From the NCBI GenBank assembly GCA_041686855.1, contig JAWLDA010000001.1:111700-175699 (forward strand): a stretch of 64,000 bases of DNA, written 5' to 3'. This document shows positions 3,423 through 54,217 of the stretch, piece after piece. This DNA comes from Limnochordia bacterium (GTDB taxonomy: Bacteria > Bacillota > Limnochordia > DTU080 > RSA5). Position numbers and translations under genes: made by a program. The notes beneath the pieces were generated by a model. The model was not told the origin of the DNA. It saw only the letters and a program-made list of their open reading frames with translations, and did not search any database. The first letter of the stretch is position 1; every line of letters begins with the position of its first letter.

Positions 3423-4724
3423 ATGAGGGGTAAAGCGCACCAATCGCTGAGAAAATCTATGGCGCTGACTGTCGTTGCGGTGGTAACGTTGCTGTGTGCT
3501 TCGTTCAGCTGGGCTGCTGAGCCAGTTACGTTGCAGGTCCTGGTGCACGGCAGCTCGGGCACCGACTACTGGAACCGCACCCGTACATTCTTTGACGGGT
3601 TCGAAGAGCTCAACCCGGACATCAAGATTGAGATGACGCCGAGCCCGGCCTCGAACCCGGCCGAAGGATTGGCGGTCCGTGTGGCTGGCGGAATCTCTCC
3701 GGACTTGGTCCGCCTCTGGGGGGTCCCCGAGGTCGCGAAGGCCGGATTAATTCAAGACATCACCGATCGGTTTGAGCGACTCCCAAGTGATGTGCGCTCC
3801 GACTTTTGGCCGGTGCTCATCGATGGCACCTTGAGCTGGAACGGGAAGCTCTACGCGCTCCCCTTGGGTACCGCGGTGAGCAGCTACTTCTACAACAAGC
3901 GGCTCTTCAACGAGAGTGGTGTCCCCTTCCCAACCGCTGATTGGAGTTGGGAACAGGAAGGGACGCAAGAGATTCCCCGTATGACCCGCGATCAAAACGG
4001 CGATGGGACGCCGGAGACATGGGGGATTGTCCGCATCGACGGCGGATTGGGACGTGAGACGTATCACTTTAGCTACGCCGCAGGCGGCGGCCCTCTGTTC
4101 AGTCAAGACGGGACCAAGTTTCTCGGCAACTCTGATGCCGTGAAGGACGCTCTACAGTTTATTCACGACCTGGCGCACGTCCATCAGGCGATGCCGGCAC
4201 AGGGCACCGGTTGGACCAACTTTGGCGAGCAGACTGCTGCATCGATGATGTGGGGCAGCTTCATGTTTGGATTCATGCAGCGTTTCCCGGATCTGGATTG
4301 GGATATCTCGTACACCCCCACGTTCCAGGGAGGTCGGGCGACCAACATCTGGCCCGAAACCCCGTACGCGATCCCCGTCGGCGCGAAACATCCAGATGAA
4401 GCCTGGAGAGTGCTCGAGTTCATCGCCAGTGTGGAAGGGCAAACCCTGGCCATGGAGCTGGGATGGGGTATTCCTCCGGCTAGGCGCAGTGTCGCACTCT
4501 CGGCCTTCCTCGATGCCAACGCTGACGTAAACATTCCGGCCATGATCGATATGATCAACACACCCGCGACACAGGTGTTGCCCGAACACGTTCCCCAGGA
4601 TATCCGGACGTACTACTATAACAATGTGATCAAGCCGGTGGCCACCGGGGAGAAGAGCGCAGTGCAGGCGCTCGACGAGGCGAGCCCAGTCATCCAGAGT
4701 ATGCTCGACGAGTGGAACGAGTAG
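3423..4724 (+). CDS. ABC transporter substrate-binding protein (carbohydrate, family 1), orphan
   Basis: Signal peptide MRGKAHQ...SFSWAAEP. Typical SBP segments (WNGKLYALP, YYNKRLF). Start chosen at Met19 with GGAGG 8 bp upstream. No permease genes adjacent. Confidence 0.85.
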   Translation: MRGKAHQSLRKSMALTVVAVVTLLCASFSWAAEPVTLQVLVHGSSGTDYWNRTRTFFDGFEELNPDIKIEMTPSPASNPAEGLAVRVAGGISPDLVRLWGVPEVAKAGLIQDITDRFERLPSDVRSDFWPVLIDGTLSWNGKLYALPLGTAVSSYFYNKRLFNESGVPFPTADWSWEQEGTQEIPRMTRDQNGDGTPETWGIVRIDGGLGRETYHFSYAAGGGPLFSQDGTKFLGNSDAVKDALQFIHDLAHVHQAMPAQGTGWTNFGEQTAASMMWGSFMFGFMQRFPDLDWDISYTPTFQGGRATNIWPETPYAIPVGAKHPDEAWRVLEFIASVEGQTLAMELGWGIPPARRSVALSAFLDANADVNIPAMIDMINTPATQVLPEHVPQDIRTYYYNNVIKPVATGEKSAVQALDEASPVIQSMLDEWNE

Positions 4725-4784
4725 GAACGAGTAGCGTTCACAGCCCGTTTGAGCGCGTCACGACAACAGGTGAGTTAGGAGCGC

Positions 4785-4811
4785 GGGGCGACCTCTCGTT
4801 TAGGTCGCCCC
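4785..4811 (+). terminator. GC-rich hairpin (GGGGCGACC-N10-GGTCGCCCC) after the SBP gene
   Basis: Perfect 9-bp inverted repeat seen in sequence. No U-tract, so rho-independent function is uncertain. Confidence 0.35.
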
Positions 4812-4832: not shown

Positions 4833-6830
4833 ATGCCGAGGGAGCTAGGAACTGCAGCCGGTTACGCCTTTCAGCAATGGCTACGCAACCAGGTGCGTAG
4901 CGAGACGTGCGCACCCGCATTTCCTCAAACCAAGGACGAAGTCGCAGAGTACCGACGAAAGGTCCGCAGTATCTTGGAGGAAGCCGCCGGGCCCACGCCC
5001 GACTACGATCCCCTTGAGGCGGAGATTCACCAAGTGCATCAACGGGACGGGTACCGGATCGAAGCGGTCAGTTTCCCGACCTTCGGTGGACTGCGGATGA
5101 CGGCTACCGCATTTGTCCCTGAGACAGACGCGCCTGTACCCGGTGTCTTGGCCGTGCACGGACACTCCAAACATGGACGGCGCGACGCCCGCAACCAACA
5201 GCGGTGTGCCGCTTTGGCTAAAGCGGGGTATTTTACGCTTGCAGTCGATGCAGTGGGGAACGGCGAACGCAGTCTCGAGCTCCCTGGCTCCTACCACGGC
5301 GGTCATCTTGCGGGGGCTCTTTGGCTCACGGGATACTCCGTCTTTGGAATTCAAATTCACGAGAACTTCCGCGCTTGTGACTACCTCGCCTCGCGACCTG
5401 AAGTGGACGAGACGCGCCTTGCCATCTCAGGAGCCTCGGGCGGAGGCAACCAGAGCTTTTACTCGGGGGCGTGGGACGGGCGTTTCACCGCGGTTGTCCC
5501 TGTCTGTTCGATGGGGGCGTATCGCAAGTTTGTGGGATCGTTTAATTGCATGTGTGAGACTCCGTTTGGGATCGCCGGGAAGTTGGAACAGTTTGACGTG
5601 ATGGCGGCGATCGCGCCCCGAGCGCTGTTGGTTATGAGCGCGCGAGTGGATAACGTGAGCTTTCGGTACGAGGATGCCCAAGCCAACACCGAGCAGGCGA
5701 GCCGGCTTTGGGAGCTGTTTGGAGAGCGGGAGCGTGTGCGCTTTGAGTCGCTTCCTGTCTCGCACGGTTACCCCAAAGAGGCGCGTGAGGCGTGTTTAGG
5801 CTGGTTTAATCGGTGGTTAAAAGACGGAGAAGAGAGCGCCCCCATCCAAGAGATGGAGGTGCCGGTCGAAGATTACGCGACGCTGTCGTGCTATCCCACG
5901 GCAGCGACGGCGCAAGTGATGACGCTTCCGGCTTTCTTTGCCCGGAGACGGGACGAGGTTTCCCCCTCGGCTGTTGATCTCGGCATGGATGATGTACGCC
6001 GCGTCTTTGGACCGAGTCGCGAGATCTCCCTCGAGATGGAGACCATCGATCGCCTGCCCAACCTGGCAGAAGATCTCGCCGGGGCTCTGCGTGTCTACGA
6101 AAGTCCGGAAGGGGAATTGATCCCCGTCTCCGTGTACTGGCCGGATTTCACCAGCACGACCGAGCGGGTCCTTATGATGGTAGGCGATCGAAAGGAAGAT
6201 ATGGTGAAATCGCCTCTGGCAAAAGAGGCGTTGCGTACGGGGAGCACGCTCTGGGCGGTTGATCTGCCGGGTCTCGGCGAGGCGCGGTTACCGGGAGAGG
6301 TAACGGAGTACGTTGAGAATCTCCTCGGTTTGCACGGTTGCAGCAGCGCTGTGAGAGCGTGTCAACTCCTCGGGTTCCCCCTGGCCGGGTACTGGGTCTC
6401 GTTGTTGCAATCGTTGGCTCGCCACGTCCCCGAAGGGGTTGAGTCCGTGCGCCTCGCTGCCTCCGGCGGGCCTGCGACCACCGTTTTGACAGCAGCTTCT
6501 TTGCTCGATGGGTTTGAGACGATCACTGTCACACACCCATTGGTCACGTATCGGCGTGACGATCGATTCACGGGAATCCCGTTTGAAGCGTTGATTCCCA
6601 ACCTCCTAAAGGTGGGGGACATTCCCGATTTCGTGGCGGTGGCGGCGCCGAAACCTCTGACAGTTGTGGCGCCACTCGCCTCCGACGGGAGTCCTATTCC
6701 TGTGAACGAGGCGCATCGGATCCTGGAGCCGGTGGCTGCGCGGTACAAACAGCTTGGCCGGCCTCAGGCCTTTCACGTAGTCGGTGACGGAGAAGCGTCA
6801 GTGAGCCCGCTGCTCAACTTGGCTCACTAA
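4833..6830 (+). CDS. alpha/beta hydrolase, AXE1-like esterase with ~300-aa C-terminal extension
   Basis: GASGGG nucleophile motif. CMCETPFGIAG...IAPRALL is paralogous to the 1276-2340 protein. GGAGG 7 bp before ATG. The C-terminal 300 aa has no motif I recognise. Confidence 0.75.
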   Translation: MPRELGTAAGYAFQQWLRNQVRSETCAPAFPQTKDEVAEYRRKVRSILEEAAGPTPDYDPLEAEIHQVHQRDGYRIEAVSFPTFGGLRMTATAFVPETDAPVPGVLAVHGHSKHGRRDARNQQRCAALAKAGYFTLAVDAVGNGERSLELPGSYHGGHLAGALWLTGYSVFGIQIHENFRACDYLASRPEVDETRLAISGASGGGNQSFYSGAWDGRFTAVVPVCSMGAYRKFVGSFNCMCETPFGIAGKLEQFDVMAAIAPRALLVMSARVDNVSFRYEDAQANTEQASRLWELFGERERVRFESLPVSHGYPKEAREACLGWFNRWLKDGEESAPIQEMEVPVEDYATLSCYPTAATAQVMTLPAFFARRRDEVSPSAVDLGMDDVRRVFGPSREISLEMETIDRLPNLAEDLAGALRVYESPEGELIPVSVYWPDFTSTTERVLMMVGDRKEDMVKSPLAKEALRTGSTLWAVDLPGLGEARLPGEVTEYVENLLGLHGCSSAVRACQLLGFPLAGYWVSLLQSLARHVPEGVESVRLAASGGPATTVLTAASLLDGFETITVTHPLVTYRRDDRFTGIPFEALIPNLLKVGDIPDFVAVAAPKPLTVVAPLASDGSPIPVNEAHRILEPVAARYKQLGRPQAFHVVGDGEASVSPLLNLAH

Positions 6831-11719: not shown

Positions 11720-12043
11720 GTGAAGTTTAACTGCCTTTGCGGACGAGTCATTGTTGACAGTGCCGATTGCAGCCCGGTTAAAGCGCACGTTATTCCTGAT
11801 CAAGAAGCGTTCAGCATTCTTGACGCTATCGACGCAGCCATCTCTCATTCCGGATCGAGCGCCCATGCCAAAGCGGTGGCGTGTATGAAGGTGCGGGCGC
11901 TCCTGAGTGATGTGGCCCGACGTATTTGGCAATGTCAAGAGTGCGGGCGACTGTGGATCGAGGACAAGGCGAAAGAGATAAAGCTAAAGGCGTTTCGCCC
12001 GGAGTCGGGGGAGAACCTGGTCGGAATCCTAGCCAAAGAGTGA
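11720..12043 (+). CDS. small Cys-rich (zinc-ribbon-like) hypothetical protein
   Basis: CLC...C and CQEC pairs. GTG start preceded by AAGGAG. Ends 12 bp before the ADH start. Confidence 0.45.
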   Translation: MKFNCLCGRVIVDSADCSPVKAHVIPDQEAFSILDAIDAAISHSGSSAHAKAVACMKVRALLSDVARRIWQCQECGRLWIEDKAKEIKLKAFRPESGENLVGILAKE

Positions 12044-12054
12044 GGGCAGATTTC

Positions 12055-13047
12055 ATGAGAGTAGTGCGCTACGAAGGGAGCCGCCGTGTCTCGGTCGTCG
12101 AGGCGCCGGAGCCGAGACCGAAACCGGGCGAGGTGGTTGTAGAGATTGCCGTCTCGGCTCTATGCGGCAGTGAGTTGGGGGCGTATCGACGGGATCAAGG
12201 TACGCCCGGTAACAGCGGTCACGAAGCGGCAGGCGTCGTCGTCGAACTCGGTCCGGGCGTGAGTGCGTTGGAGGTCGGACAGCGGGTCGGCTTGAGCGCC
12301 GTCGTCGGGTGTGGTGCATGTCGTCAGTGTGACGCCGGAGCGTACACGTGGTGTCCAGATTACCGGGTGTATTCAAACATGCATGCAGAGCGTGTCGCGA
12401 TACCGGCCAGAGCGTGTCATGTTCTCCCGGACGATGTGGACTGGGACGTAGGGGTGTTGATAACGGGCGACGCGTTGGGCGTGCCCTATCACACGTCGAG
12501 AAAAATGGGATCCGATGTGAGGAGCGTTGCAATCTTTGGCGTTGGACCAGTCGGACTAGGTAACACCCTCGTACAGAGTTACCAGGGGCGAGACGTGATC
12601 GCCGTCGATTTGTCGCCGAAGCGCCTCGAGCTGGCTCGGGGCCTCGGGGCCGTACATACGGTGAACGCTGCAGAAAAGGATCCCGTAGAGGCTGTTGTCG
12701 TCCTGACGTCCAGCGATGGGGCCGATGTCTGTATTGAAGCGGCCGGGCGACCGACAACGTTAAAGCAGTGTTTTAAAGCGGTGCGAACAGGCGGTCACGT
12801 CGTCATGAACGGCGAGCAAGGGAGTGTAGAGCTCTCACCCAGCAACGATTTTATTCGCCGGGATATCACGGCGACCGGGTCGTGGTTTTATCACTACGCG
12901 GAGTTCCATCAAATGCTTACACTCTATCGACAGGGGCTGCGCGTTCGCGACCTGGTGACGCATCGATTCGATCTTGAGCGGGCTGACGAGGCGTTCGCGC
13001 TCTTTGATGCTGGTGAGACTGGGAAGGTACTTTTGGAAATGAAATAG
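12055..13047 (+). CDS. zinc-dependent alcohol dehydrogenase (MDR superfamily, sorbitol/threonine-DH-like)
   Basis: GHEAAGVV catalytic-zinc motif. CGACRQCDAGAYTWC structural-zinc motif. GVGPVG NAD motif. Start at internal Met with GAGTGAGGG upstream. The upstream ORF extension is an Arg/Gly-rich artefact. Confidence 0.85.
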   Translation: MRVVRYEGSRRVSVVEAPEPRPKPGEVVVEIAVSALCGSELGAYRRDQGTPGNSGHEAAGVVVELGPGVSALEVGQRVGLSAVVGCGACRQCDAGAYTWCPDYRVYSNMHAERVAIPARACHVLPDDVDWDVGVLITGDALGVPYHTSRKMGSDVRSVAIFGVGPVGLGNTLVQSYQGRDVIAVDLSPKRLELARGLGAVHTVNAAEKDPVEAVVVLTSSDGADVCIEAAGRPTTLKQCFKAVRTGGHVVMNGEQGSVELSPSNDFIRRDITATGSWFYHYAEFHQMLTLYRQGLRVRDLVTHRFDLERADEAFALFDAGETGKVLLEMK

Positions 13048-13161: not shown

Positions 13162-14475
13162 ATGAGGTTGGCAAAAGGAATGCGCGTTGGACTTTTCACC
13201 ATCGTATTCTGCCTGCTCATCAGCGGGGCGCTGGCGGCCGCGCCGGTGAACATCACGATGTGGCACCCGTTCCCCGATCGGGAGGAGTTTGGCGCTTGGC
13301 AGACGCTGGTGGACAGGTTTAATGCCGAGAATCCGGATATTAGCGTAACGTTGGAGGGTAAAGCGGGCATGACCTCCAGCCCTGACGGGTTGATTGTACC
13401 GGTCGCCAGCGGCGCCGGTCCCGATCTTGCCTTTTTTAGTTACGCTTGGACCCCGATGCTCTCGGCTAACGAGGTCTTTCTCAATCTGCGGCCTATGATG
13501 GAAAGGGACGGCTTCCTTCCTGAGCTGGAAGAAGATTTCCTCCCCGGTACACACAGCGCCCTCGGATGGCAAGGCGGAATTTACGGGGTGCCGGCCGACG
13601 TATCGGTGATGGTGCCGATGTATCTCCCCGAGGTACTCGACGTCTCGGGTGTGGCCGCGCCCGCGCCAGGCTGGACCTGGGACGACATGATCGACCTCGT
13701 ACGATCGGTGCGGCGGATGGGCTCTAACGGTGAGTGGGACATCTATCCGGGGTTGGACGATCATCCCCTCCACACTTACCTTCCAATCGTGTTGCAGGCC
13801 GGCGCCCGTTTCTTTGACAACGACGCGCGCAGCTCCGCAGTCGACAGTGCTGAGATGCGAGAAGGGCTCGAGTTTCTGACTCGTCTCTTTGACGAGGAGT
13901 ACCTCGTCTGGACCCCCGACCGCCGCGATGTCTTTATGGCGGGCAAAGGTGCCATCCTCTTTGGTTCGGATGCTTCTATCGGAAACCTCTTCTTGGACCA
14001 ACGGCCAAATATGCGGGTCGCGCATCCACCGCGCCACCCCAATCGGGAGCCGGTCACGTCCATGGTCTTTCACTCGCTCTCGGTCGTACGGTCCGGTGAT
14101 TCCGAGCGCGAAGAGGCTGCGTGGAAACTCCTGCGTTACCTTACCACCACGGATTCCTTAGTACATGTTGCCCGCATTAGTGGTAAGATGCCTCCACGGA
14201 TCAGCGCGCTCCGAGATGCCGACTTCCAGTACGATCGACGGGAGTACCCGGCGCTGATGGACGTCCTCGAAGTGCTTCCGATGGGAACGACCGATGGTTG
14301 GGTGGGAGTTCCCGATGCAGGACCGTACTTGCGGGGTGTCCTCTCGGCAGGACTGGGCAAAGCACGACCCGGTCCCAATCGGGCCAGTGTCGAAGAGATT
14401 GTGGAAGAGATGCACGTCGGCACGCAAAACGTGCTCGATGATTTCTGGAACAATTACCAAGCCACGGATCGCTAG
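13162..14475 (+). CDS. ABC transporter substrate-binding protein (carbohydrate), orphan
   Basis: Signal peptide MRLAKGMRVGLFTIVFCLLISGALAAAP. AAGGAG 8 bp before ATG. SBP family-1 architecture. Confidence 0.85.
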   Translation: MRLAKGMRVGLFTIVFCLLISGALAAAPVNITMWHPFPDREEFGAWQTLVDRFNAENPDISVTLEGKAGMTSSPDGLIVPVASGAGPDLAFFSYAWTPMLSANEVFLNLRPMMERDGFLPELEEDFLPGTHSALGWQGGIYGVPADVSVMVPMYLPEVLDVSGVAAPAPGWTWDDMIDLVRSVRRMGSNGEWDIYPGLDDHPLHTYLPIVLQAGARFFDNDARSSAVDSAEMREGLEFLTRLFDEEYLVWTPDRRDVFMAGKGAILFGSDASIGNLFLDQRPNMRVAHPPRHPNREPVTSMVFHSLSVVRSGDSEREEAAWKLLRYLTTTDSLVHVARISGKMPPRISALRDADFQYDRREYPALMDVLEVLPMGTTDGWVGVPDAGPYLRGVLSAGLGKARPGPNRASVEEIVEEMHVGTQNVLDDFWNNYQATDR

Positions 14476-14521: not shown

Positions 14522-15673
14522 TTGGATTTGTGTGTGAGAAAGGGTGCGAGCTCGTTGGAGATTGTTGACGGTGCGTTTCGGGTTGGCATAGTAGGGTTGG
14601 GTCGAAGGGCCGGGGGGTGGAACTCGACTAGCCCTGGCTGGTCTGACGAAGTGGTGCACGGCAAGTTTGACACGTTTTTGCCCCCGTATCCATGGACTCA
14701 TGCCAGCGCGTACAGTTATTTGCGTGAGACGAGGATTGTCGCAGGCGCTGACGTGGATGCAGAGGCACGGGAGATTTTCGGCCGTCGATGGCGGGTGGAC
14801 GACCTTTATGCATCGTACGAGGAGATGCTTGCGAACGAAGCCCTCGACATTGTGAGTGTCACCACTCAGGCTCCACTCCACGCTGAGGTTGTGGCCGCTT
14901 CCATCCGCGCCGGCGTTCGCGGCGTGTACGTGGAGAAACCCTTGGCGTGCACGTTGCGGGAAGTGGACGAGCTTGTTGAGATGTGCGAAACTTCCAAGAC
15001 CGCCCTTGCTTACGGAGCCCAACGGCGCTACGATAAGCCCTTTGAAGAGGCGACCGCCCATGCACGCTCGGGGTTGTTGGGAACCATTCAGCGAGCCTAT
15101 TCGATCTCGTTTGGCGGCGGTCTCTTCCATTCGCATTCGCACACGGTGGATACGCTCCTCTACCTCTTGGGCGATCCGGTACCTGTGGCCGTGAGGGCCC
15201 AACTAACTGGTGTCGAGCTCGAGGATGGCCATGAGGGTCGCAGGTTTGCCCGCGACCCCGGTGTCGCATGGATGAGCGTTGAATGTGAGGGCGGCGTTTC
15301 GTTTGACATTCTCACAGTCGCAGCGAAACGAGTGGAGTACGCTCTCTTGGGCACCCAGGGCGAGGCGCGGATTCGCAATAACGGGCGGAGCTTAGAACTG
15401 TCTCTCATGGATGATGAAGCCAGCGATAATTTGCTGGGCCAAGTGCTCCGCCGCGGTGAGGAAGAGACCTATCCCTATATGTCGACCGGCGGCGCAAATC
15501 TCGTTAAAGATCTCCTCGATTCTGTGCGGACGGGCCAATCTCCGCGAGGCGGTATGCACCAGGCGCGCTGGGGTATGGAAGTGCTCTTCGGCGCGGTGGA
15601 CTCACACCTTGCCGGTGGTAAGCCCATTGAGCTGCCGCTCGCACGCAGAGACGCGTACGTCCCTTCACGCTAA
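14522..15673 (+). CDS. Gfo/Idh/MocA-like oxidoreductase with atypical N-terminal insertion
   Basis: RVGIVGLGRRAG Rossmann motif, then a ~30-aa insertion, then YVEKPLA. The true start is possibly a downstream TTG/GTG (LEIVDG...). Confidence 0.7.
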   Translation: MDLCVRKGASSLEIVDGAFRVGIVGLGRRAGGWNSTSPGWSDEVVHGKFDTFLPPYPWTHASAYSYLRETRIVAGADVDAEAREIFGRRWRVDDLYASYEEMLANEALDIVSVTTQAPLHAEVVAASIRAGVRGVYVEKPLACTLREVDELVEMCETSKTALAYGAQRRYDKPFEEATAHARSGLLGTIQRAYSISFGGGLFHSHSHTVDTLLYLLGDPVPVAVRAQLTGVELEDGHEGRRFARDPGVAWMSVECEGGVSFDILTVAAKRVEYALLGTQGEARIRNNGRSLELSLMDDEASDNLLGQVLRRGEEETYPYMSTGGANLVKDLLDSVRTGQSPRGGMHQARWGMEVLFGAVDSHLAGGKPIELPLARRDAYVPSR

Positions 15674-16972: not shown

Positions 16973-18267
16973 ATGAAGAGACGCTCATGGTTTCGTACGT
17001 TCTTTTTCGTTGTGAGTATGGTCTTGGTTATAGGAGCGGGAATCACTCAAGCAAAGATTGTGGTGTTGGCATGGCCGAGTATTGCTCAAATCCACGATTT
17101 GGAGGGTGCTGTTGAGCGGTTTAACACGTTGCATCCCGAAATTGAAGTCGAGTTTCTGTTGGGTGCGTCAAACTCTCGCGGTTACATCGAGCAAGTGATG
17201 ATTATGCAAGCGTCTGGCCAACAGGTGGACGTTGTGACCGCCATGCCTCACTGGGGTCTTCCATTGGCTATTGGTGACGGGACGACTGATCTCATCCCGT
17301 ACCTCAACGCAGCCGGTTTAAATGACTCTGATTATGCCCCCGGGACTTTGGATGGTTTCCGATGGAACTCGGAAGTTTGGGGGTTGCCGCTGAGCGTCCT
17401 GCTTTATGGTTCAGCATACAACGAGCGTCTCTTGACCGAGAGTGGGTTTGCTGCGCCTCAAGACTCTGATTGGACTTGGGAGACGGTTGTAGAAATGGCT
17501 CGTAGAACCACGTTGGAGATCGTTCAGGTGATGGCGTGGCAGACCAATATGGCGTCGACGCAGGCGGAAGTCCGCGAACACTCTTCCTCTATCCGCTTGT
17601 TAACCAAGCCGGCGGGCTCGCGTATGACCGATATGTGGATCCGCAGCGCGCGTTATGGACGGAGTCCTATGTAACCAGGGCCCTGGAATATTACCTTGGG
17701 CTTTTTGAGAATGGGTACGCTCCGCGTTCGGGGCACATACCTGCAAACATTGGCTGGAACGAAGGGAACGTTGCATTTCGAATGATTGCGGGACCAACGT
17801 CCTATGCAACGCTTGCAGAGTCGCTTGGGCATCGGGAAGTGAAGTTCATCCAAGCACCTCGCGGACCTGTTCGAGGCGGAAATCAAATCGCCGCGTATGG
17901 GGTCAATATGACGGCGACGAGTCAACATAAAGACGAAGCCTGGATGTTCATGGAGTATGTCTCGACTTCCGCGGCTGAGCTCCTTGAGAGATATCGTGAG
18001 CCTTCAAGACAGCGTCCATCCTCGTATATACCGAACATCCAACACTTTATGGAGCTGGACGACATTGCCGATCTTCCGGTGTGGCAAGCGCTCGCAGTGA
18101 ATCCGGACAATACTCCTCGATATGCACTCAGGGGCGAGTCGAGAATTAATGATGCGATTCAGAATGCCCTGTTAGACGTCGTGAATCAGGAACAAGCGCT
18201 ACCAGCGGCAGTGGAGAATATCCAACGTGTCGTTCAATCGATTTTAGACGAAGAACACAGCAGGTAA
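16973..18267 (+). pseudogene. ABC sugar substrate-binding protein gene disrupted by a frameshift near 17500-17540
   Basis: Two overlapping ORFs (16973-17674 and 17536-18267) each carry half of an SBP: signal peptide plus N-lobe, then a FLYPLVNQAGG...YY..LF C-lobe. Local GC is ~50%. Confidence 0.6.
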
Positions 18268-18269: not shown

Positions 18270-19768
18270 GTGAACAATCGTCTTCGATTCGTGACGGTGG
18301 GGGAACAGGTTGTGGGAAACACAAGGCCCGAATTGCTTATTTTGCAACCGAGTGATCCGGAAGAACCAAGTTTCGTCTCGTTGGTTGAGCGATGCGTTGA
18401 ACGTGGGTTATACTTCACGTTTGATTCACATGAGCGGCTCCCTGTGAGCATAGGCACGGACCTTAGTTCGTATCGAGCGATTGTACTTGATCCAAGACTT
18501 CGGTGGAAAGACCGGGAACCGTACGCAACTCCACTCAAAGAGTATATAGCGCAGGGGGGAGTCGTCCGCGAGTTCTCCACAATCGATTCGTTTAGACGAG
18601 ATCTGGAGAATCCATATGACAACTTTCTTGACTTGCTGATCGACCAAGTCGGATTAACACCCCAGCACCCCGGGATTCGATCGGCATTGGCATCTAGAGA
18701 TGATCGACAACTGCTAGAGTCGCTTGTTGATAGTGCGCTGGAACCATCACGACACCGTCCGCACCTGGATCAAAGCCTTCACTCACTCTACACAAGTCTC
18801 GGTGACACGGGGAGTTATTGGGCCCGACGCCCGTTGATGCTTGCGGGTTTGTATTTTCAAGATCCCGAAATTCTCGAGAAAGTCGTGCACTGGGTCGACC
18901 TTACAATGGCATCCCGTGAGAACCCACCCCTTCATCTCGACGGAGTATCGGATGCCTGTACTTGGATTTGGGCTTTCAAATCAACGGGGAATGAACAATA
19001 CCTTCATTACATTAGGGAACGTGTGGATCGTGTCATCCGCACGTTCCCCCGGGTCCACGGAGTTGCGAGCCACAGCGTGTGGATGACTACTGAGTCGTGT
19101 GCGATGTTGGCGCCGACACTCGCCGCATTGGGAGCCTGCTTAGACGAACCGGAGTACACTGATCGCGCTATCGATCACTTGGAAAGGGTGTACCGCCACC
19201 ACTTCGATCGGAGCGACGGGTTGTGGCATCACGGGACGCGCCCGGGAAAAAAACCGCAGCAAAGTGGGGGCGAGGCCAGGGTTGGGCCCTCTATGGGATT
19301 GCTGGGACGCTCGAAGCCCTACCGCCGAATCACGCAAAGCGGGCTTGGTTGTGCCAACGAATCGAAGAAGCGGCTATCTCAATGGGGCGTCTCCAAGATC
19401 CAGAGACAGGGTGTTGGTACAACATCTTAACGGATCCTATGAGTGGATTGGAGAGCAGCATCACCTCAATGGCCGTCGAGGTGTTCTCTCAAGCCTGGAG
19501 CGCGGGATGGTGTAACAACGAGTTCTTGCCCGCAATGATTAGAAAGGCATGGGCTGGCCTTAAAGCTCGCACGTTTCGAGAACGCACGGTCGGATGGTGT
19601 CCGGGCACGGGGATGTCAACTGAGTATCGGTATTACCTGCGTCGCCCACGGGTGTCGCAACCCTCGTACATCATTTCGGCGAACGTTCGCTATCTAGAAG
19701 CATTTGATGCGCCAGCGGCGCACCGTGGGACTGCATCGCAACCAAGACCTCATCTTGAAGCACCGTAA
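18270..19768 (+). pseudogene. GH105/GH88-family unsaturated glucuronyl/rhamnogalacturonyl hydrolase gene split by a -1 frameshift at an A7 run (~19240)
   Basis: The downstream frame carries the family motif KWGRGQGWALYG...QDPETGCWYNILTDP. The frames meet at GGGAAAAAAACC (the A_AAA_AAA heptamer). Confidence 0.6.
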
Positions 19769-19830: not shown

Positions 19831-20844
19831 TTACACGGCGATGCGCGTATTGCGTTCGGCCGACTCGTACATGGCTAGGACAACGCGCAGCGATTCGGTC
19901 CCATCTTCAGCGCTGATGGGGACAGGGGTGTCGTCTTGGATGCTCCCTAAGAACGCTCGGATCTCGTTGTCAAACGCGGTCGGAGGACGCTTGACGGCCT
20001 CGACGTTCCATTCGCCGTCCTCAGAGCACCAGCGCACCTCTTTCCACGTATCGACGACGAGACTCCCCTTCGTTCCCAGAAACTCCGCCACACACCGGCC
20101 GGTTGCCTTGGGAACGGTTCTATTCAAGTAGATCTGTGCTGTGGGAGCTGTACCATGAGGCGCACTTGCGTCGCCAAAGTGGACGTTTGCAACCGCAGCG
20201 TCTTCGACATCGGCTCCCGGCACAACGGTCCACATCCGGGCGTCGACGTCGGTCGCGTTCAATCCGAGCCAATATCGAAGCCGGTCGACGGCGTGGACGC
20301 CGTTATCCATCACCACACCTCCGCCGGCGACGGCCTTTTTGAATCGCCATGGCAAGGGGGCGTTGGGTTCGCGTTTTGCTGTCGAAAGGATTTCGTCGCG
20401 GGCCATCACGATCTCGCCAATCTCACCGGACGCGATGATCTCTCGGGCTCGTTGGTTTGTCGACCAAAACCGGTGGCTGTGGGCCACCATGGCTTTGAGT
20501 CCGCCAGACGTGGCAGTGGAACTCATGATCCGCTGCGCGTCCGCGAGCGTGGTGCAGACGGGTTTCTCGATAAGTACGTGCTTGCCCGCCTCGAGCACCT
20601 CGATCGCCAGATCGGCGTGACTGGTCGGAGGGGTACACACGCTCACGGCTTGGATGTTTGGGTCGTTTAGGAGCGACTCGACGTCCATGGCCTTTACGTT
20701 ATATCGGCCGGCGGCGCTCTCGGCGGCCGCCGGATTGAGATCTGCAAAGCCTACGATTTGAGCGAGGTCGCAATCGGCATACGCTTTTGCATGCGCCCCG
20801 GCAATGCCACCCGCGCCGATGATTCCAATTCCCAACTTAGCCAT
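19831..20844 (-). CDS. Gfo/Idh/MocA family oxidoreductase
   Basis: MAKLGIGIIGAGGIAGAHAKAY Rossmann motif. EKP motif. Start at Met16 with GGAGGG 8 bp upstream. Confidence 0.85.
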   Translation of the reverse strand: MAKLGIGIIGAGGIAGAHAKAYADCDLAQIVGFADLNPAAAESAAGRYNVKAMDVESLLNDPNIQAVSVCTPPTSHADLAIEVLEAGKHVLIEKPVCTTLADAQRIMSSTATSGGLKAMVAHSHRFWSTNQRAREIIASGEIGEIVMARDEILSTAKREPNAPLPWRFKKAVAGGGVVMDNGVHAVDRLRYWLGLNATDVDARMWTVVPGADVEDAAVANVHFGDASAPHGTAPTAQIYLNRTVPKATGRCVAEFLGTKGSLVVDTWKEVRWCSEDGEWNVEAVKRPPTAFDNEIRAFLGSIQDDTPVPISAEDGTESLRVVLAMYESAERNTRIAV

Positions 20845-20899
20845 TGCTAAACCCTCCATGCAGTAGTCGGTTTCAACGAACTCGGCCAATCACCCGCAA

Positions 20900-22153
20900 T
20901 TAATGCGGCAGGAGTGCCGAGGCCCGCCGTGCGGCTTCTTCGACCGCAGAGCGGACGGATGTCTCGCCGCGCCACACTTTGCTGATCTCCTGGTTCAACA
21001 CTGCATTTGCGTCGTTCCACCAGGTTGTGACAGGCAGATACCGTCCGGTTCCAAGCGCTGCGCCGATTTGTAGATTGTCTTCGCGGGAGAGGAAGGGCGC
21101 TCCGTTGTCGAGGAATTCGTCGAGCTGTGCTGCTCGGCGGTTAAGCGGCACTCCGGCCTGCTGCACCGCGTTGAGGCGTATGCGCCACCCCTCTTCGCCA
21201 AAGGCCCATGTGGCAAACTTAAACGCTTCCTCGGGATGCGCCGAGTTTTTGGGAATAGCGACAGCGTTGCCACCGAGCTGTCCAATAGAACCCGCCGGCC
21301 CATTTGGGAGCGGCGCCATGCCCCAGTCGAACGGGACTTCCCTCATGGTGAACCAAAAGGAGCGGTTGAGGCGTGTCATGACGGTCTGGCCGTTTTGAAA
21401 GCCTGGCGCAGGTCCTGGGCCGCCGGTGCCAGGTGCCGGTTCGACGCCTTCGGTGACAAACCGTTCGAGAAACTCCAGACCTTCGACGGACTCACTCGAG
21501 GTGAGCTCGATCGATCTGTAATCCTGCGAGACGATTTCTCCACCAAAACTCCATACGACGGAGGGCCAGATAGGAGTCATGCTGAGGACGCCCCAACGGT
21601 TGACCGAACCGTCGCCACCAGTTTTTACTCCCCGTTTGCCGATGTCGAGCATGTCGGTATACGTCCAGTCGGCAGTGGGCGCGGGAATGCCAATCTCGTC
21701 TAGAGCGTTTTTATTATAGAGGATTGAAGGCGCGCCGCCCTCTCGAGGGACGCCGAAGATTCCTTCGTCATGGCTCAGGGCTTCGATGGCAGGAGGGAAG
21801 AACTCGTCGGATTTGCCGGACCGTTCATAATAAGGTGAGAGGTCGACCAGGGCGCCCGTCTCGGCCATTGACACGATGGTCCAAAATGAAGTCTCGAAGA
21901 GATCGAGTTGTGTACCCGATGCCAACATCACTTGCGCAGCCGGAACCTCTGGCGTTTTGTGAATGTACTCAATCTCTACTTGGGGATTGAGTTTCATATA
22001 CTCTGCGGCAAGGGTCTTGTGGGCGTGCTCAACTGTTTCGTTTCCGTTTCCCATCCACACCAGCTTGATGTTTTGGGCGCCCGCAAGGGCCGAGAGGATT
22101 ACGACGATGCAGGAAACTAAGAGCAAGTCAAACCCTAAGTGACGCATCTTCAT
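20900..22153 (-). CDS. ABC transporter substrate-binding protein (carbohydrate), orphan
   Basis: Signal peptide MKMRHLGFDLLLVSCIVVILSALAGAQN. AAGGGAG 7 bp before ATG. 20 bp downstream of the ROK regulator gene. Confidence 0.85.
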   Translation of the reverse strand: MKMRHLGFDLLLVSCIVVILSALAGAQNIKLVWMGNGNETVEHAHKTLAAEYMKLNPQVEIEYIHKTPEVPAAQVMLASGTQLDLFETSFWTIVSMAETGALVDLSPYYERSGKSDEFFPPAIEALSHDEGIFGVPREGGAPSILYNKNALDEIGIPAPTADWTYTDMLDIGKRGVKTGGDGSVNRWGVLSMTPIWPSVVWSFGGEIVSQDYRSIELTSSESVEGLEFLERFVTEGVEPAPGTGGPGPAPGFQNGQTVMTRLNRSFWFTMREVPFDWGMAPLPNGPAGSIGQLGGNAVAIPKNSAHPEEAFKFATWAFGEEGWRIRLNAVQQAGVPLNRRAAQLDEFLDNGAPFLSREDNLQIGAALGTGRYLPVTTWWNDANAVLNQEISKVWRGETSVRSAVEEAARRASALLPH

Positions 22154-22173: not shown

Positions 22174-23331
22174 TTAGGCTGCGTTTGGATTGTAAATCCA
22201 CGATTGTAGACATACGGCGCCAATGCCGGCGATGCTCTCCCAACCAACGAAGGAGGAGCGACTTACGTGCGGTCGCGCTCCCGTCGCAGTCGAAAGCCCG
22301 TTTGAGAGTATATGGAACGCTCGCTTGCTCTTGTCAATGAGAGGGCCGGTGAGAATGACACTCGATGGCGCTGTCAGACGCACAAGCGTCTCCAAAACGT
22401 CTCGAATGTACTGAATGCGCTCAATGAGGAGTTCTGAGACCTCGCTCTCTCCGTTATCGAAATTGCGCAAGAGTGCATTCCACGCTAGGGATCCAAAACG
22501 TCCAAAAGCAGCTTCTTGGATGGCCGGAATCGAAGCGAGCGACTCGAGGCAGCCGCGGCGGCCACACCGACAGAGATGGGTGGCGTGGGGAACACGAGTG
22601 TGTCCGATTTCGCCCGCTGCGCCTTGATGACCGGCCAGGACTTGGCCCCCTAGCACAAGGGCTGCGCCAATTCCCGTTGAGACTCTCAAGAGAAGGAGTA
22701 ACCCCGCTGCGCGTGGTTTGCCGAAGAGGTACTCACTGATGGCCATGGCGGGCACTTTGGAGCTGACCACCGTCGGAACGCCTAGCCTCTCCTCCAGTTG
22801 TTCTTTGAGGCGAATGTTTCTCCAACCGAGAATGTCGCTGGAGAGAAGTAACTCTTGGTTAGGATCGTAGATGCCGGGTAAGGCAACCCCGACCCCCAAC
22901 AGTCGACGTTGTTGGTTTGGGGTCAAGCGATCGAGGCATTCTCCAATAAAATCGGCCACGTCGACCGGTGCATACCCACGTGACGTAGGCGCACTCCATT
23001 GGGAGAGAAGCTCGTTTTTTAGGCCGAGCAGTCCGGCCTCTATGGTGTCATCGCTAAGGGAGACTCCGAGTGTTAGTCGGGCTTCTGGACGGATTTCGAG
23101 CAGGGTTGGCCTAGGTCCTGAAATTCCCGCCGGCACGGATTCACTCCCTCCTTCGTGTAGGAGGCCGTTGCGAATCAGCTCGGTGACGGCGACGCTTACC
23201 GTCGCTTTCGTCAGGCCGGTCACGGCCGCGAGATCTTTGCGTGTGACGGCTTCGCCCCTAAGGATGAGTCGCATGATGGCGGCTCGATTCTGTAACTTCA
23301 CGGTTTGACTATTGCTGCCGGACGCAACCAT
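22174..23331 (-). CDS. ROK family transcriptional regulator (NagC/XylR-like)
   Basis: N-terminal wHTH (RKDLAAVTGLTKATVSVAVTELI). ROK signature and zinc motif (GEIGHTRVPHATHLCRCGRRGCLE). Confidence 0.85.
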   Translation of the reverse strand: MVASGSNSQTVKLQNRAAIMRLILRGEAVTRKDLAAVTGLTKATVSVAVTELIRNGLLHEGGSESVPAGISGPRPTLLEIRPEARLTLGVSLSDDTIEAGLLGLKNELLSQWSAPTSRGYAPVDVADFIGECLDRLTPNQQRRLLGVGVALPGIYDPNQELLLSSDILGWRNIRLKEQLEERLGVPTVVSSKVPAMAISEYLFGKPRAAGLLLLLRVSTGIGAALVLGGQVLAGHQGAAGEIGHTRVPHATHLCRCGRRGCLESLASIPAIQEAAFGRFGSLAWNALLRNFDNGESEVSELLIERIQYIRDVLETLVRLTAPSSVILTGPLIDKSKRAFHILSNGLSTATGARPHVSRSSFVGWESIAGIGAVCLQSWIYNPNAA

Positions 23332-25994: not shown

Positions 25995-26152
25995 TGTTGG
26001 CCTGAACGTACTGGGTTGTCTCCTGCCCTTGCCCGAAACGTTGCCGGCGAAAGAGTGCGATATTTCTTTCTGCTATAGGAAGGATTATCTCTCTAAAGGA
26101 GCAATCAAGAAGAGTATTAACGTTCATATTTCTGCTGGAGCTTTATGACCTT

Positions 26153-52888: not shown

Positions 52889-52918
52889 GTGCGGTAGACG
52901 ATGACGTGGAGGCAGGGT

Positions 52919-54217
52919 CTACTCTTCGGCGAGGATCGCGTTGATTTGGCGAGAAGCCTCCGCCAATGCTTCGCCGGCACCGATCCGGCCAGCCAAGATG
53001 TTGAGGCTCACCTGTGTCAACGTGCGGCGAATCTCGGGCTTGGGGTAGCGAGGCAGGGGCGTGAATGTGTTCATGGTCTCATTCCAGACGGCTTCCACCG
53101 CGGTGCGAAACTGCCCGTAGCTCATCTGGAGATCGATATGAGGCCTCACGAGGCTTCGTTGATTGGGTATGTTCCCGAGTTGTGTCATCTGGTACTCGGC
53201 TTGGTGTGGAACAATAAACTTGAGGACTTCCCAGGCTGCGTCTGTTCGTGGAGACGCAGCGTTAATCATCCATGGCTGGAACGAGGCCATGGTATGCCGT
53301 CCAGCCGGCCCTGACGGGTATGGGACGTAGTCGGGCAGATACGGGAAGAGACCGATGTGAAAGGCGGTAGGCGTGCCCTGGTCAAAGACGACGTCCCCGC
53401 TCTCGCGCCGCTCGTACGTACCGGGCGCCTCCAGATCAGCAATGACGATCGCGTCTCTTACGACTTGGTCGGCCATCCACTCGTACGCCGTCACCGTTTC
53501 GAGCGAGTTGATCGCCGTCTGATTGCTGTCGACCGACATCACGTTGCCGCCGAAGTTCCAAATAAACGGCCATTCGTTGAACGCGGAACTCGCCGTACCC
53601 AGGAGACCGATCTGGACGAGATGCCCTTCGCCTTCACGTTCGGTCACTTTCGTCGCGTAAAGGGCGAAGGTCTCCTGATCCCACCGACCCGCATCGAAGA
53701 GAGCGTTGGGGTCTTCGAGGCCGGCCGCGTTGAGCGCGGCGGCGTGGTACGCCATGGGCTTGACGTAAACGGATCCGGGGATGCCGACGGTCTTCCCGTT
53801 GTACCGATCGAAAAAGAGGAGCTCTTGCGCGAAGTCACGCTCCTGCGCTAAAAAGCCGTCGAGCGGGAGGGCAGAGTTGGTCAAGTAAACACTGTTCGCG
53901 TCCTCCGGCTCCATAATAAAGAGATCCGGCGCCTCGTCTCCAAGGGTTGCGAGCATGACAAGGACTTTCTCTGCGTACTCGGAGGCGCGCCCGGGGACGA
54001 CCATCAAATTGATGTCGATGTTGGGGTGGTCAAACTCCTGAAGTAGCCGTTGTAAATTGGGTTGGGGGCCGGCCTCTTCGACGAACTGTCCCCACACGGC
54101 CACATTGACGGTCGTTGCCGCGGCGCTTTGCGCTGAAACAGGGCGCACAGCGGCTCCAAACGCCCCAACCAGCGCTATGAGGACTCCAATGAGAAACGGG
54201 TTCGCCATTCGATGCAC
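52919..54217 (-). CDS. ABC transporter substrate-binding protein (carbohydrate), orphan
   Basis: Signal peptide MANPFLIGVLIALVGAFGAAVRPVSAQS. SBP family-1 pattern. GAGGGA upstream of GTG. Confidence 0.85.
   Translation of the reverse strand: MHRMANPFLIGVLIALVGAFGAAVRPVSAQSAAATTVNVAVWGQFVEEAGPQPNLQRLLQEFDHPNIDINLMVVPGRASEYAEKVLVMLATLGDEAPDLFIMEPEDANSVYLTNSALPLDGFLAQERDFAQELLFFDRYNGKTVGIPGSVYVKPMAYHAAALNAAGLEDPNALFDAGRWDQETFALYATKVTEREGEGHLVQIGLLGTASSAFNEWPFIWNFGGNVMSVDSNQTAINSLETVTAYEWMADQVVRDAIVIADLEAPGTYERRESGDVVFDQGTPTAFHIGLFPYLPDYVPYPSGPAGRHTMASFQPWMINAASPRTDAAWEVLKFIVPHQAEYQMTQLGNIPNQRSLVRPHIDLQMSYGQFRTAVEAVWNETMNTFTPLPRYPKPEIRRTLTQVSLNILAGRIGAGEALAEASRQINAILAEE

What the first reader, a model, noticed from the sequence alone, without database searches (positions are those of the whole stretch)
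3423..54217. Six ABC-type sugar substrate-binding proteins with no ABC permease or ATPase anywhere in 64 kb
SBP genes at 3423-4724, 13162-14475, 16973-18267 (frameshifted), 20900-22153, 27318-28556 and 52919-54217 all carry Sec/SPI-type signal peptides. Each is embedded next to a regulator and/or Gfo and TIM-barrel enzymes. None is followed by MalF/MalG-type permease genes or an ATPase, which family-1 sugar SBPs normally have adjacent. So either one distant permease/ATPase set is shared by many SBPs, or these SBPs serve as sensors or binding partners for something else (chemotaxis, two-component or regulator ligands).
Basis: partly seen in the sequence, partly recalled or inferred. Interest (0 to 1): 0.6.

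Follow-up and report, generated by a model that had tools for sequence, protein, structure and literature searches.

The report
Sugar-binding proteins without local ABC permeases
Six genes for secreted sugar-capturing proteins sit inside sugar-breakdown gene clusters with no membrane transporter anywhere in 64 kb, and related uncultured bacteria show the same layout, so these binding proteins probably all feed transporter channels encoded elsewhere, possibly a few shared ones.

Summary
Six SBP_bac_1 (CUT1-type) substrate-binding protein genes lie at the stated coordinates. Each has an SPI-type signal peptide; one (SBP3) is frameshifted. The window has no BPD_transp_1 permease, no ABC ATPase and no polytopic membrane protein in any of the six frames.

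This is not chance. In 34 comparator loci from other phyla I found 62 permease ORFs against 39 SBP ORFs. In the window plus 18 non-redundant loci found through SBP1 and SBP5 homologues (mostly digester metagenome contigs) the counts are 1 against 50.

The SBPs are functional:
- dN/dS is 0.05-0.10.
- The predicted SBP1 fold is a canonical oligosaccharide binder.
- Pairings with partner genes are conserved (LacI-SBP5-TIM-Gfo; SBP1-esterase).
- A conserved LacI operator lies upstream of SBP5.

All neighbouring enzymes look cytoplasmic and all regulators are soluble.

Best reading: the SBPs are ligand-specific modules placed in catabolic operons. They deliver substrate to MalFG/MalK-type translocators encoded elsewhere, probably fewer translocators than SBPs. 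The SBP-to-permease ratio for the whole genome could not be obtained. Orphan SBPs are a known idea; the scale and the lineage-wide consistency are what is unusual here.

The parts
2366..3172 (-). AraC-family regulator, divergent from SBP1
   Evidence: Pfam HTH_18, HTH_AraC and AraC_binding. No TM segment.
3423..4724 (+). SBP1, a secreted CUT1-type substrate-binding protein
   Evidence: Pfam SBP_bac_1 94.5 bits. AF2 model pLDDT 84; Foldseek TM 0.78-0.86 to AbnE and Lmo0181. dN/dS 0.10 against the 74% orthologue.
4833..6830 (+). 665-aa esterase (AXE1 / glucuronoyl-esterase-like); conserved partner of SBP1
   Evidence: Pfam Abhydrolase_7 and AXE1. The same 667-aa esterase lies next to the 80% SBP1 orthologue in L057/L058. 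No signal peptide.
11926..13047 (+). Zn-dependent alcohol/polyol dehydrogenase, upstream of SBP2 on the same strand
   Evidence: Pfam ADH_N and ADH_zinc_N.
13162..14475 (+). SBP2, a secreted CUT1-type substrate-binding protein
   Evidence: Pfam SBP_bac_8 77.2 bits and SBP_bac_1 67.6 bits. Nearest PDB sequences are sugar SBPs.
14522..15673 (+). Gfo/Idh/MocA oxidoreductase, 47 nt downstream of SBP2
   Evidence: Pfam GFO_IDH_MocA. No signal or Tat motif.
16973..18267 (+). SBP3, a substrate-binding protein gene interrupted by a one-base frameshift near 17512
   Evidence: Two ORFs. Three-frame reading and a 431-aa reconstruction. Aligns full length with the other SBPs.
18270..19768 (+). GH88 unsaturated glucuronyl hydrolase, 3 nt after SBP3; frameshifted at an A8 run (19246-19253)
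   Evidence: Pfam Glyco_hydro_88 on both halves. Sequence read.
19831..20889 (-). Gfo/Idh/MocA oxidoreductase, 10 nt downstream of SBP4
   Evidence: Pfam. NCBIfam gives only sub-threshold resemblance to IolG and levoglucosan dehydrogenase.
20900..22153 (-). SBP4, a secreted CUT1-type substrate-binding protein
   Evidence: Pfam SBP_bac_1 98.7 bits. Nearest PDB sequence is Lmo0181, E = 2e-29.
22174..23331 (-). ROK-family regulator with an N-terminal wHTH, immediately upstream of SBP4
   Evidence: Pfam ROK and MarR_2.
23344..24228 (-). Xylose-isomerase-like TIM barrel, first gene of the TIM-ROK-SBP4-Gfo string
   Evidence: Pfam AP_endonuc_2.
26115..26128 (.). LacI-type palindromic operator TATTAACGTTCATA, upstream of lacI
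   Evidence: Only two sites in the window, against 0.14 expected.
26153..27154 (+). LacI-family regulator of the SBP5 cassette
   Evidence: Pfam LacI and Peripla_BP_3. Conserved upstream of the SBP5 orthologues in L001 and L002.
27198..27211 (.). Second copy of the operator, upstream of SBP5; conserved in relatives as TATGAACGTTCATA
   Evidence: Alignment with L001 and L002.
27318..28556 (+). SBP5, a secreted CUT1-type substrate-binding protein
   Evidence: Pfam SBP_bac_1 97.3 bits. dN/dS 0.05-0.09. Homologous to translocator-docking SBPs including LpqY, 7cae_E.
28654..29496 (+). Xylose-isomerase-like TIM barrel of the SBP5 cassette
   Evidence: Pfam AP_endonuc_2, 160 bits. Position conserved in L002.
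29496..30527 (+). Gfo/Idh/MocA oxidoreductase of the SBP5 cassette
   Evidence: Pfam. Position conserved in L002.
30527..31249 (+). GntR/FCD regulator at the end of the SBP5 cassette
   Evidence: Pfam GntR and FCD.
52919..54217 (-). SBP6, the most divergent secreted substrate-binding protein
   Evidence: Pfam SBP_bac_1 37.6 bits against a cut-off of 26. Nearest PDB sequence is the cycloisomaltooligosaccharide-binding protein 9xf5, E = 4e-13.
54279..55124 (-). Xylose-isomerase-like TIM barrel, upstream of SBP6
   Evidence: Pfam AP_endonuc_2.
55243..55926 (-). Cytoplasmic glycerophosphodiester phosphodiesterase, first gene of the GDPD-TIM-SBP6 string
   Evidence: Pfam GDPD.

Best explanation
The six genes encode functional, exported CUT1-type oligosaccharide-binding proteins. 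Each has been separated from its membrane components and placed as a ligand-specific module in its own catabolic cassette. A cassette holds a soluble one-component regulator, the SBP, and cytoplasmic enzymes: Gfo/Idh/MocA oxidoreductases, xylose-isomerase-like TIM barrels, esterases or GH88.

Proposed mechanism:
1. The local regulator induces the SBP together with its enzymes.
2. The SBP is secreted by Sec and signal peptidase I and binds its sugar outside the cytoplasmic membrane.
3. It docks on a MalF/MalG-type translocator, powered by a MalK/MsiK-type ATPase, that is encoded elsewhere in the genome.
4. The imported sugar is processed by the cytoplasmic enzymes of the same cassette.

Related genomes show the same total absence of linked permeases over dozens of SBP genes. 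The translocators are therefore most likely few and shared by many SBPs, a 'many receptors, few channels' organisation.

Shown here: SBP identity, export signal, fold, purifying selection, co-localisation with cytoplasmic enzymes, probable co-regulation with them (a conserved operator), and the absence of any local membrane partner in this genome and its relatives.

Inferred: docking to a distant ABC translocator, and sharing of that translocator.
For: 1. All six are SBP_bac_1 or SBP_bac_8 proteins. Their nearest solved relatives are ABC-linked oligosaccharide binders: AbnE, Lmo0181, MalE, CbpB and LpqY. The SBP1 model has pLDDT 84 and TM 0.78-0.86 to AbnE and Lmo0181.

2. They are the only proteins in the 64 kb with export signals. 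The sulfatase, GH88, esterases, peptidases, Gfo and TIM proteins all lack them, so their substrates must be imported.

3. There is no permease, ATPase or other transporter in any frame.

4. dN/dS is 0.05-0.10 for SBP5 and SBP1, as low as for the neighbouring enzymes.

5. Pairings are conserved. LacI-SBP5-TIM-Gfo recurs in L002 and LacI-SBP5 in L001. SBP1 and the esterase recur together in L057/L058. A palindromic LacI operator upstream of SBP5 and of lacI is conserved in relatives.

6. The pattern is lineage-wide. The window plus 18 non-redundant loci found through SBP1 and SBP5 homologues (269 kb) hold 50 SBP-like ORF segments and one BPD_transp_1 ORF. That one is a 504-aa protein next to an SBP_bac_11/6-type SBP, which I take to be an iron-type system. 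The 34 comparator loci hold 39 SBP-like and 62 permease ORFs (Fisher p = 3e-14). L050 alone has six Pfam-confirmed SBPs in 21 kb.

7. More distant homologues (25% identity or less) are canonical LacI/ROK-SBP-MalF-MalG operons.

8. Precedent exists for several SBPs using one translocator: MppA with OppBCDF (PMC3173086), CaiX and BetX with CbcWV (PMC8938411), DppA1-5 with DppBCDF (PMC4206461) and Bifidobacterium LT-SBP (PMC8110962).
Against: - No translocator from this genome was seen. The rest of the 580-kb contig and the assembly could not be reached, so neither the existence of MalFG/MalK genes nor the SBP-to-translocator ratio is known.
- The six SBPs are only 22-27% identical to each other. 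Sharing one translocator would need unusually tolerant docking.
- The related loci were found through SBP homologues and are mostly short metagenome contigs, so permeases could lie just beyond their ends.
- One locus counted with the lineage set (L040, 39% GC; its SBP is only 28% identical to SBP5) clearly comes from another organism.
- The ligands are unknown. NCBIfam gave only sub-threshold matches.
Confidence: 0.6

Rival explanations
1. The genes are unlinked but each SBP has a dedicated partner. Every SBP has its own MalFG-type translocator encoded elsewhere, for example in permease-only clusters. The genome-wide ratio is then near 1:1 and only the gene order is unusual.
For: CUT1 ATPases are often unlinked from their transporters (my own knowledge of MsiK/MsmK-type shared ATPases). 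The SBPs are very divergent from each other (22-27% identity), which normally goes with distinct translocators.
Against: 269 kb from the window and 18 other loci contain 50 SBP-like ORFs and not one MalFG-type permease. With a 1:1 ratio and random placement, some should have been sampled. Permease-only clusters of this kind are not a known arrangement.
Confidence: 0.2
2. The SBPs act as extracytoplasmic ligand sensors. They would dock on membrane histidine kinases, chemoreceptors or other signalling proteins rather than on transporters.
For: SBPs are known co-receptors for sensor kinases and chemoreceptors (PMC11113362 abstract; PMC8938411 introduction). Absence of a linked permease is compatible with this role.
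Against: The 64 kb holds no membrane protein, kinase or MCP. Every adjacent regulator is a soluble one-component protein with its own ligand-binding domain. The SBPs are co-oriented with cytoplasmic catabolic enzymes, 3-108 nt apart, and those enzymes need imported substrate. The nearest structural relatives are all transport SBPs.
Confidence: 0.07
3. The SBPs work with a non-canonical membrane partner, such as a secondary transporter or an exporter-fold ABC protein. Alternatively they only retain or concentrate oligosaccharides in the periplasm.
For: ABC_membrane+ABC_tran half-transporter genes occur a few kb from SBP1-family genes in three relatives: L035, L043 and L057. The local partner is completely absent.
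Against: The window itself has no such gene. Such half-transporters are common in Bacillota genomes (my own knowledge) and are not adjacent to the SBPs. No SBP_bac_1 protein is known to use such a partner.
Confidence: 0.08
4. The SBP genes are decaying remnants of former ABC operons that lost their permeases.
For: SBP3 and the adjacent GH88 both carry frameshifts.
Against: The other five are intact with intact signal peptides. dN/dS is 0.05-0.10. Orthologues and their cassette partners are conserved across assemblies. No permease fragments occur in any frame.
Confidence: 0.03

Closest known systems
CUT1 (TCDB 3.A.1.1) oligosaccharide ABC importers, e.g. MalEFGK2, AbnEFJ of Geobacillus, LpqY-SugABC
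   Same: Same SBP family (Pfam SBP_bac_1/8) and the same two-lobe fold, with TM 0.78-0.86 to AbnE and Lmo0181. The SBPs are exported and are controlled by LacI- or ROK-type regulators next to catabolic genes.
   Different: The canonical systems have malF/malG-type genes directly beside the SBP gene: 30 of 34 comparator loci, plus L055 and L056. Here none of the six does, and none of about 44 further SBP-like ORFs in related loci does either.
Orphan SBPs that borrow a translocator: MppA with OppBCDF, CaiX and BetX with CbcWV, DppA1-5 with DppBCDF, HisJ and ArgT with HisQMP (reviewed by Thomas 2010, 'Homes for the orphans')
   Same: The SBP genes lie in operons without membrane components, often beside catabolic genes, and are presumed to dock on a translocator encoded elsewhere (PMC3173086, PMC8938411, PMC4206461).
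   Different: The known cases involve one to five extra SBPs, usually close paralogues of the cognate SBP, in peptide, amino-acid or quaternary-amine systems. Here the orphan state is the rule for a whole set of mutually distant (22-27% identity) sugar SBPs across a lineage. No cognate, complete operon has been seen.
Bug/TctC expansion of the tripartite tricarboxylate transporter family in Bordetella and Cupriavidus
   Same: A large excess of orphan periplasmic binding proteins over membrane components: 76 Bug genes against two tctAB sets in B. pertussis (PMC5812351). The binding-protein genes are scattered next to catabolic genes.
   Different: It is a different protein family (TctC, not SBP_bac_1), a different energy coupling (secondary transport rather than ABC) and a different phylum. 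An excess over translocators has not been shown here.
Synechococcus MsBP, an orphan CUT1-like sugar SBP
   Same: A cluster-D sugar-type SBP encoded without ABC membrane or ATPase genes, predicted to use LacF/LacG-type components elsewhere (PMC8938411).
   Different: It is a single gene in a non-catabolic (mreBCD) context, not a series of SBP-plus-enzyme cassettes.

Membership tests
ABC-importer substrate-binding protein, Pfam SBP_bac_1 (PF01547) / cluster D / CUT1 | Sequence match to the family model above the curated cut-off | tested here: met
   All six pass. Scores run from 34.1 to 98.7 bits against cut-offs of 26-27.
ABC-importer substrate-binding protein, Pfam SBP_bac_1 (PF01547) / cluster D / CUT1 | Two-lobe alpha/beta periplasmic-binding-protein fold | tested here: met
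   Tested for SBP1 only. The AF2 model has pLDDT 84 and pTM 0.82. The top Foldseek PDB hits are AbnE, Lmo0181, MalE and CbpB, with probability 1.00 and TM 0.7-0.86.
ABC-importer substrate-binding protein, Pfam SBP_bac_1 (PF01547) / cluster D / CUT1 | N-terminal export signal (SPI or lipoprotein) | tested here: met
   All six have a charged n-region, a hydrophobic core and an AXA-like site; none has a convincing lipobox. This rests on inspection and a hydropathy scan, not on a dedicated predictor.
ABC-importer substrate-binding protein, Pfam SBP_bac_1 (PF01547) / cluster D / CUT1 | Gene adjacent to two BPD_transp_1 (MalF/MalG-type) permease genes | tested here: not met
   No BPD_transp_1 in 64 kb by Pfam, by TM scan, by six-frame phmmer or by a custom HMM.
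ABC-importer substrate-binding protein, Pfam SBP_bac_1 (PF01547) / cluster D / CUT1 | Delivers its ligand to an ABC translocator and stimulates its ATPase | not testable with these tools
   This needs biochemistry or genetics.
Orphan SBPs sharing a translocator (MppA, CaiX and BetX type) | SBP gene not linked to membrane or ATPase genes | tested here: met
   The same holds in relatives.
Orphan SBPs sharing a translocator (MppA, CaiX and BetX type) | A compatible translocator elsewhere in the same genome, serving more than one SBP | not testable with these tools
   The source genome (the NCBI 580,060-bp contig carrying P0001, P0147 and P0027) is not in the genome collection or the position index.
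Bug/TctC-type SBP over-representation (TTT family) | TctC-family (PF03401) binding protein | tested here: not met
   Pfam gives only SBP_bac_1 and SBP_bac_8. The resemblance is an analogy of genome organisation.
SBP co-receptors of signalling proteins (ChvE-VirA, LuxP-LuxQ, MBP-Tar type) | A membrane sensor kinase or chemoreceptor partner, typically encoded adjacent | tested here: not met
   The window contains no HisKA, HATPase_c, MCPsignal or any TM protein. Distant partners cannot be excluded.

The most novel reading that the evidence does not exclude
In this uncultured Bacillota lineage (probably Limnochordia-related), CUT1 sugar uptake may be organised as a hub. One or a very few MalFG/MalK-type translocators would accept dozens of mutually distant SBPs (22-27% identity), each encoded as a plug-in module within its own catabolic cassette. 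This would be an ABC counterpart of the Bordetella Bug/TTT expansion. It would also imply far more permissive SBP-translocator docking than any characterised CUT1 system shows.
Probability: 0.35. Interest if true: 0.7.

Novelty: new variant of a known kind. Interest (0 to 1): 0.5.

Why it matters
If the SBP-to-translocator ratio really is high, three things follow.
- The lineage would be a natural test bed for what determines SBP-translocator docking specificity in type I ABC importers.
- Automated 'SBP means one transporter' annotation would miscount the transport capacity of such genomes.
- Substrate range could evolve by adding only an SBP plus enzymes, a cheap route to catabolic breadth in polysaccharide-rich habitats such as digesters.

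If the ratio turns out to be near 1:1, the finding reduces to an unusual gene order.

Tried and rejected
- **Reaching the rest of the source genome.** Exact look-ups of the first and last window proteins and of the identical database protein P0001 found nothing. The cluster look-up gave no accession or name. The single genome-contig scan did not contain the genome; its best hits were 35% identity or less. The genome-wide SBP-to-permease count was therefore not possible.
- **Taxonomy.** The citrate synthase search gave only 59% identity to named Firmicutes and Armatimonadota MAGs. The Limnochordia assignment rests on one 66% SBP1 homologue labelled 'Limnochordia bacterium' and on 'Firmicutes bacterium' digester MAGs.
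- **Homologues of SBP2, SBP3, SBP4 and SBP6.** The profile search of all six SBPs returned close homologues only for SBP1 and SBP5. Orthologue context for the other four is untested.
- **Ligand assignment.** NCBIfam gave only far-sub-threshold matches to IolG, IolE, epimerases and levoglucosan dehydrogenase. I considered a UgpB-like role for SBP6, because it lies next to GDPD, but its nearest solved relatives are sugar binders.
- **Signal-peptide-bearing or Tat-dependent periplasmic Gfo enzymes.** None were found.
- **Other searches.** Rfam and tRNA scans of the window were empty. Literature searches found no report on SBP expansion or orphan SBPs in Limnochordia.
- **Pseudogene explanation.** Rejected for five of the six SBPs.
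Full report
**1. Observation**

ORF listing and Pfam scans confirm six SBP_bac_1/SBP_bac_8 genes at the stated coordinates.
- SBP3 is split into two ORFs. A one-base shift near 17512 restores a 431-aa protein that aligns end to end with the other five.
- Each SBP starts with a charged n-region, a strongly hydrophobic core and an AXA-like cleavage site, without a convincing lipobox.
- I scanned about 53 further ORFs with Pfam. They comprise:
  - ten Gfo/Idh/MocA oxidoreductases and five xylose-isomerase-like TIM barrels;
  - AraC, ROK, LacI and GntR regulators;
  - esterases, S9, S15 and M20 peptidases, GH88, a sulfatase and DUF4838;
  - a methylcitrate-cycle cluster and a sulfate-assimilation cluster.
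- There is no BPD_transp_1, no genuine ABC ATPase, and no MFS or SSS transporter.
- No ORF of 100 aa or more has three or more predicted TM segments.
- phmmer with 29 MalF/MalG-type permeases against every six-frame segment of 40 aa or more gave nothing better than E = 0.03.
- No ABC-type Walker A or EAA motif occurs. One LSGGE regex hit lies in an antisense frame inside the sulfite reductase gene (59350-59745), with no Walker A.

**2. Is it more than chance?**

The genome scan with the SBP5 family returned distant relatives (23-35% identity) in Actinomycetota, Clostridia, Anaerolineae and others.
- Of 17 such loci inspected, at least 15 have a pair of 5-6-TM ORFs of about 300 and 280 aa next to the SBP. 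The L013 pair is BPD_transp_1 by Pfam.
- Two further distant homologues sit in textbook LacI/ROK-SBP-permease-permease operons.
- With uniform HMMs, the 34 comparator loci (583 kb) hold 39 SBP-like and 62 permease-like ORFs.
- The window plus 18 non-redundant loci found through SBP1 and SBP5 homologues (269 kb) hold 50 SBP-like ORF segments and a single permease-like ORF. That one is a 504-aa BPD_transp_1 protein beside an SBP_bac_11/6-type SBP in L035, which I take to be an iron-type system.
- Fisher's exact test gives p = 3e-14.

**3. The pattern is lineage-wide**

SBP5 has only three close homologues (70-81% identity). Beyond those, identity falls to 31% or less.
- Their contigs keep LacI-SBP (L001) and LacI-SBP-TIM-Gfo (L002), with no permease.
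- SBP1 has a deeper family, 46-80% identity. One member is labelled 'Limnochordia bacterium' and others 'Firmicutes bacterium' from anaerobic digesters.

Contigs carrying SBP1-family members show the following, with no MalFG-type gene in any of them:

| Locus | Content |
|---|---|
| L057 | SBP1 next to the same 667-aa esterase, plus a second SBP |
| L035 | two SBPs among large glycoside-hydrolase-like genes |
| L037 | three SBPs with heparinase II/III and pectate-lyase-like genes |
| L039 | three SBPs with fucosidase |
| L046 | four SBPs in a row |
| L050 | six Pfam-confirmed SBPs in 21 kb |

The other membrane proteins seen in these loci are MFS, AgrB, MatE, COX1 and exporter-type ABC proteins. 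Most relatives have 56-58% GC, like the window. A few are at 64-70%, and L040 (39%) comes from a different organism.

**4. The SBPs are functional**
- dN/dS (NG86; dS saturated above 2, so approximate) is 0.05-0.09 for SBP5 and 0.10 for SBP1. The neighbouring TIM, Gfo and LacI genes give 0.06-0.13.
- The AF2 model of SBP1 (pLDDT 84) superposes on AbnE, Lmo0181, MalE and CbpB with TM 0.7-0.86.
- By sequence, all six are nearest to ABC-linked oligosaccharide binders. SBP5 also matches LpqY, which has been solved in complex with its translocator.
- The six are only 22-27% identical to each other. They are old paralogues and presumably bind different ligands.

**5. Cassette anatomy**

Each SBP is co-oriented with enzyme genes, 3-108 nt away from them:
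- AraC, divergently transcribed from SBP1-esterase
- ADH-SBP2-Gfo-transglutaminase-like-SBP3-GH88
- TIM-ROK-SBP4-Gfo
- LacI-SBP5-TIM-Gfo-GntR
- GDPD-TIM-SBP6

A palindrome, TATTAACGTTCATA, occurs exactly twice in the window, upstream of lacI and upstream of SBP5, against 0.14 sites expected. It is conserved in L001 and L002 as TATGAACGTTCATA. SBP5 therefore probably belongs to the LacI regulon together with the enzymes.

The SBPs are the only exported proteins. Every enzyme, including the sulfatase and GH88, lacks a Sec or Tat signal.

**6. Mechanism**

What is shown:
- exported, selected, canonical CUT1 binders;
- co-localisation, and probable co-regulation, with cytoplasmic catabolic enzymes;
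- no local membrane partner.

What is inferred: ligand-loaded SBPs dock on a MalFG/MalK-type translocator encoded elsewhere. About 50 SBP-like ORFs in 269 kb of this genome and related loci have no linked permease, so translocators are probably fewer than SBPs and shared. I give this 0.6.

Rivals:
- dedicated but unlinked translocators (0.2);
- a non-canonical partner, or periplasmic retention only (0.08);
- a signalling co-receptor role (0.07; no membrane sensor anywhere, and all regulators are soluble);
- gene decay (0.03, and only SBP3-GH88 looks affected).

**7. Comparison with what is known**

As proteins these are members of the CUT1 / cluster-D SBP family. As an operon architecture they fail the family's usual linkage feature. 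The concept of orphan SBPs borrowing a translocator is established:
- MppA with Opp (PMC3173086);
- CaiX and BetX with CbcWV, and Thomas 2010 (both cited in PMC8938411);
- DppA1-5 (PMC4206461);
- Bifidobacterium LT-SBP (PMC8110962).

The nearest analogue in scale is the Bug/TctC expansion: 76 binding proteins against two tctAB sets in B. pertussis (PMC5812351). That is a different family and a different type of transporter. I found no report of this organisation for CUT1 SBPs or for Limnochordia.

From my own knowledge, Limnochordia are reported to be diderm Firmicutes. That would fit soluble, SPI-cleaved SBPs rather than lipoprotein SBPs.

**8. Limits**
- The source genome beyond the window was unreachable, so the decisive genome-wide ratio is missing.
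- The related loci were found through SBP homologues and are short.
- Orthologue context was obtained only for SBP1 and SBP5.
- Taxonomy rests on a few labelled homologues.
- The ligands are unknown.

**9. Verdict**

This is a real and statistically clear feature. It is conserved across a lineage and is explained most simply by a known principle, orphan SBPs using distant translocators, applied at an unusual scale. I rate it as a new variant of a known kind, with interest 0.5.

Noticed in passing
window 37744-38977: A non-coding stretch of about 1.4 kb between the S15 peptidase and a Gfo gene consists of tandem repeats. They are a 40-bp unit x3.7 (37744-37892), a 230-bp unit x3.3 at 89% match (37989-38760) and a 16-bp unit x8.8 (38838-38977). 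There is no Rfam hit and no tRNA.
   Followed up: partly
window 17512 and 19246-19253: Two adjacent genes, SBP3 and GH88, are the only frameshifted genes noticed in the window. The GH88 shift is at an A8 homopolymer, so it may be a sequencing error. The SBP3 shift is not at a homopolymer. Either this one cassette is decaying or local assembly quality is low.
   Followed up: partly
window 1-64000: The 64 kb (about 53 genes) contain no predicted polytopic membrane protein at all. They do contain ten Gfo/Idh/MocA paralogues and five xylose-isomerase-like TIM barrels, all apparently cytoplasmic. This fits oxidoreductive sugar or glycoside catabolism, but NCBIfam gave no equivalog-level match.
   Followed up: partly
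window 44057-45655 (-): A sulfatase (Sulfatase plus SGSH_C domains) has no signal peptide, and no formylglycine-generating or anaerobic sulfatase-maturing enzyme gene was seen in the window. It appears to be a cytoplasmic sulfatase, which again implies import of sulfated substrates.
   Followed up: no
window 31362-35578 (+): A methylcitrate-cycle-like cluster (PrpD, citrate/2-methylcitrate synthase, PEP-mutase/ICL-family lyase, enoyl-CoA hydratase) lies directly after the GntR gene of the SBP5 cassette. The citrate synthase is at most 59% identical to any named homologue (Firmicutes and Armatimonadota MAGs).
   Followed up: partly
window 56428-63946 (+): A complete assimilatory sulfate-reduction string: CysD, a CysN-CysC fusion, sulfite reductase, PAPS/APS reductase, a 152-aa ORF with no Pfam match, siroheme synthase SirC and uroporphyrinogen methyltransferase. 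No sulfate transporter gene lies beside it.
   Followed up: no
L035 2539-6275; L057 826-2613; L043 18648-20597: Exporter-fold ABC half-transporter genes (ABC_membrane plus ABC_tran, about 600-650 aa) occur a few kb from SBP1-family genes in three related loci, though not in the window. This is probably coincidental, but they are the only ABC membrane proteins seen near these SBPs.
   Followed up: no
window 41596-42762 (+), 9790-10599 (-), 61636-62094 (+): Three sizeable ORFs (388, 269 and 152 aa) have no Pfam match. The 388-aa ORF also has no NCBIfam match and sits between an M20 peptidase and a Gfo gene.
   Followed up: partly
window 24312-25007 (-): A short ORF has a Laminin_G_3 / 3-keto-disaccharide-hydrolase-like segment and no signal peptide. 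It overlaps the divergent Gfo gene by about 180 nt as called, so its true start is uncertain. It hints at a 3-keto-glycoside pathway next to the SBP4 cassette.
   Followed up: no
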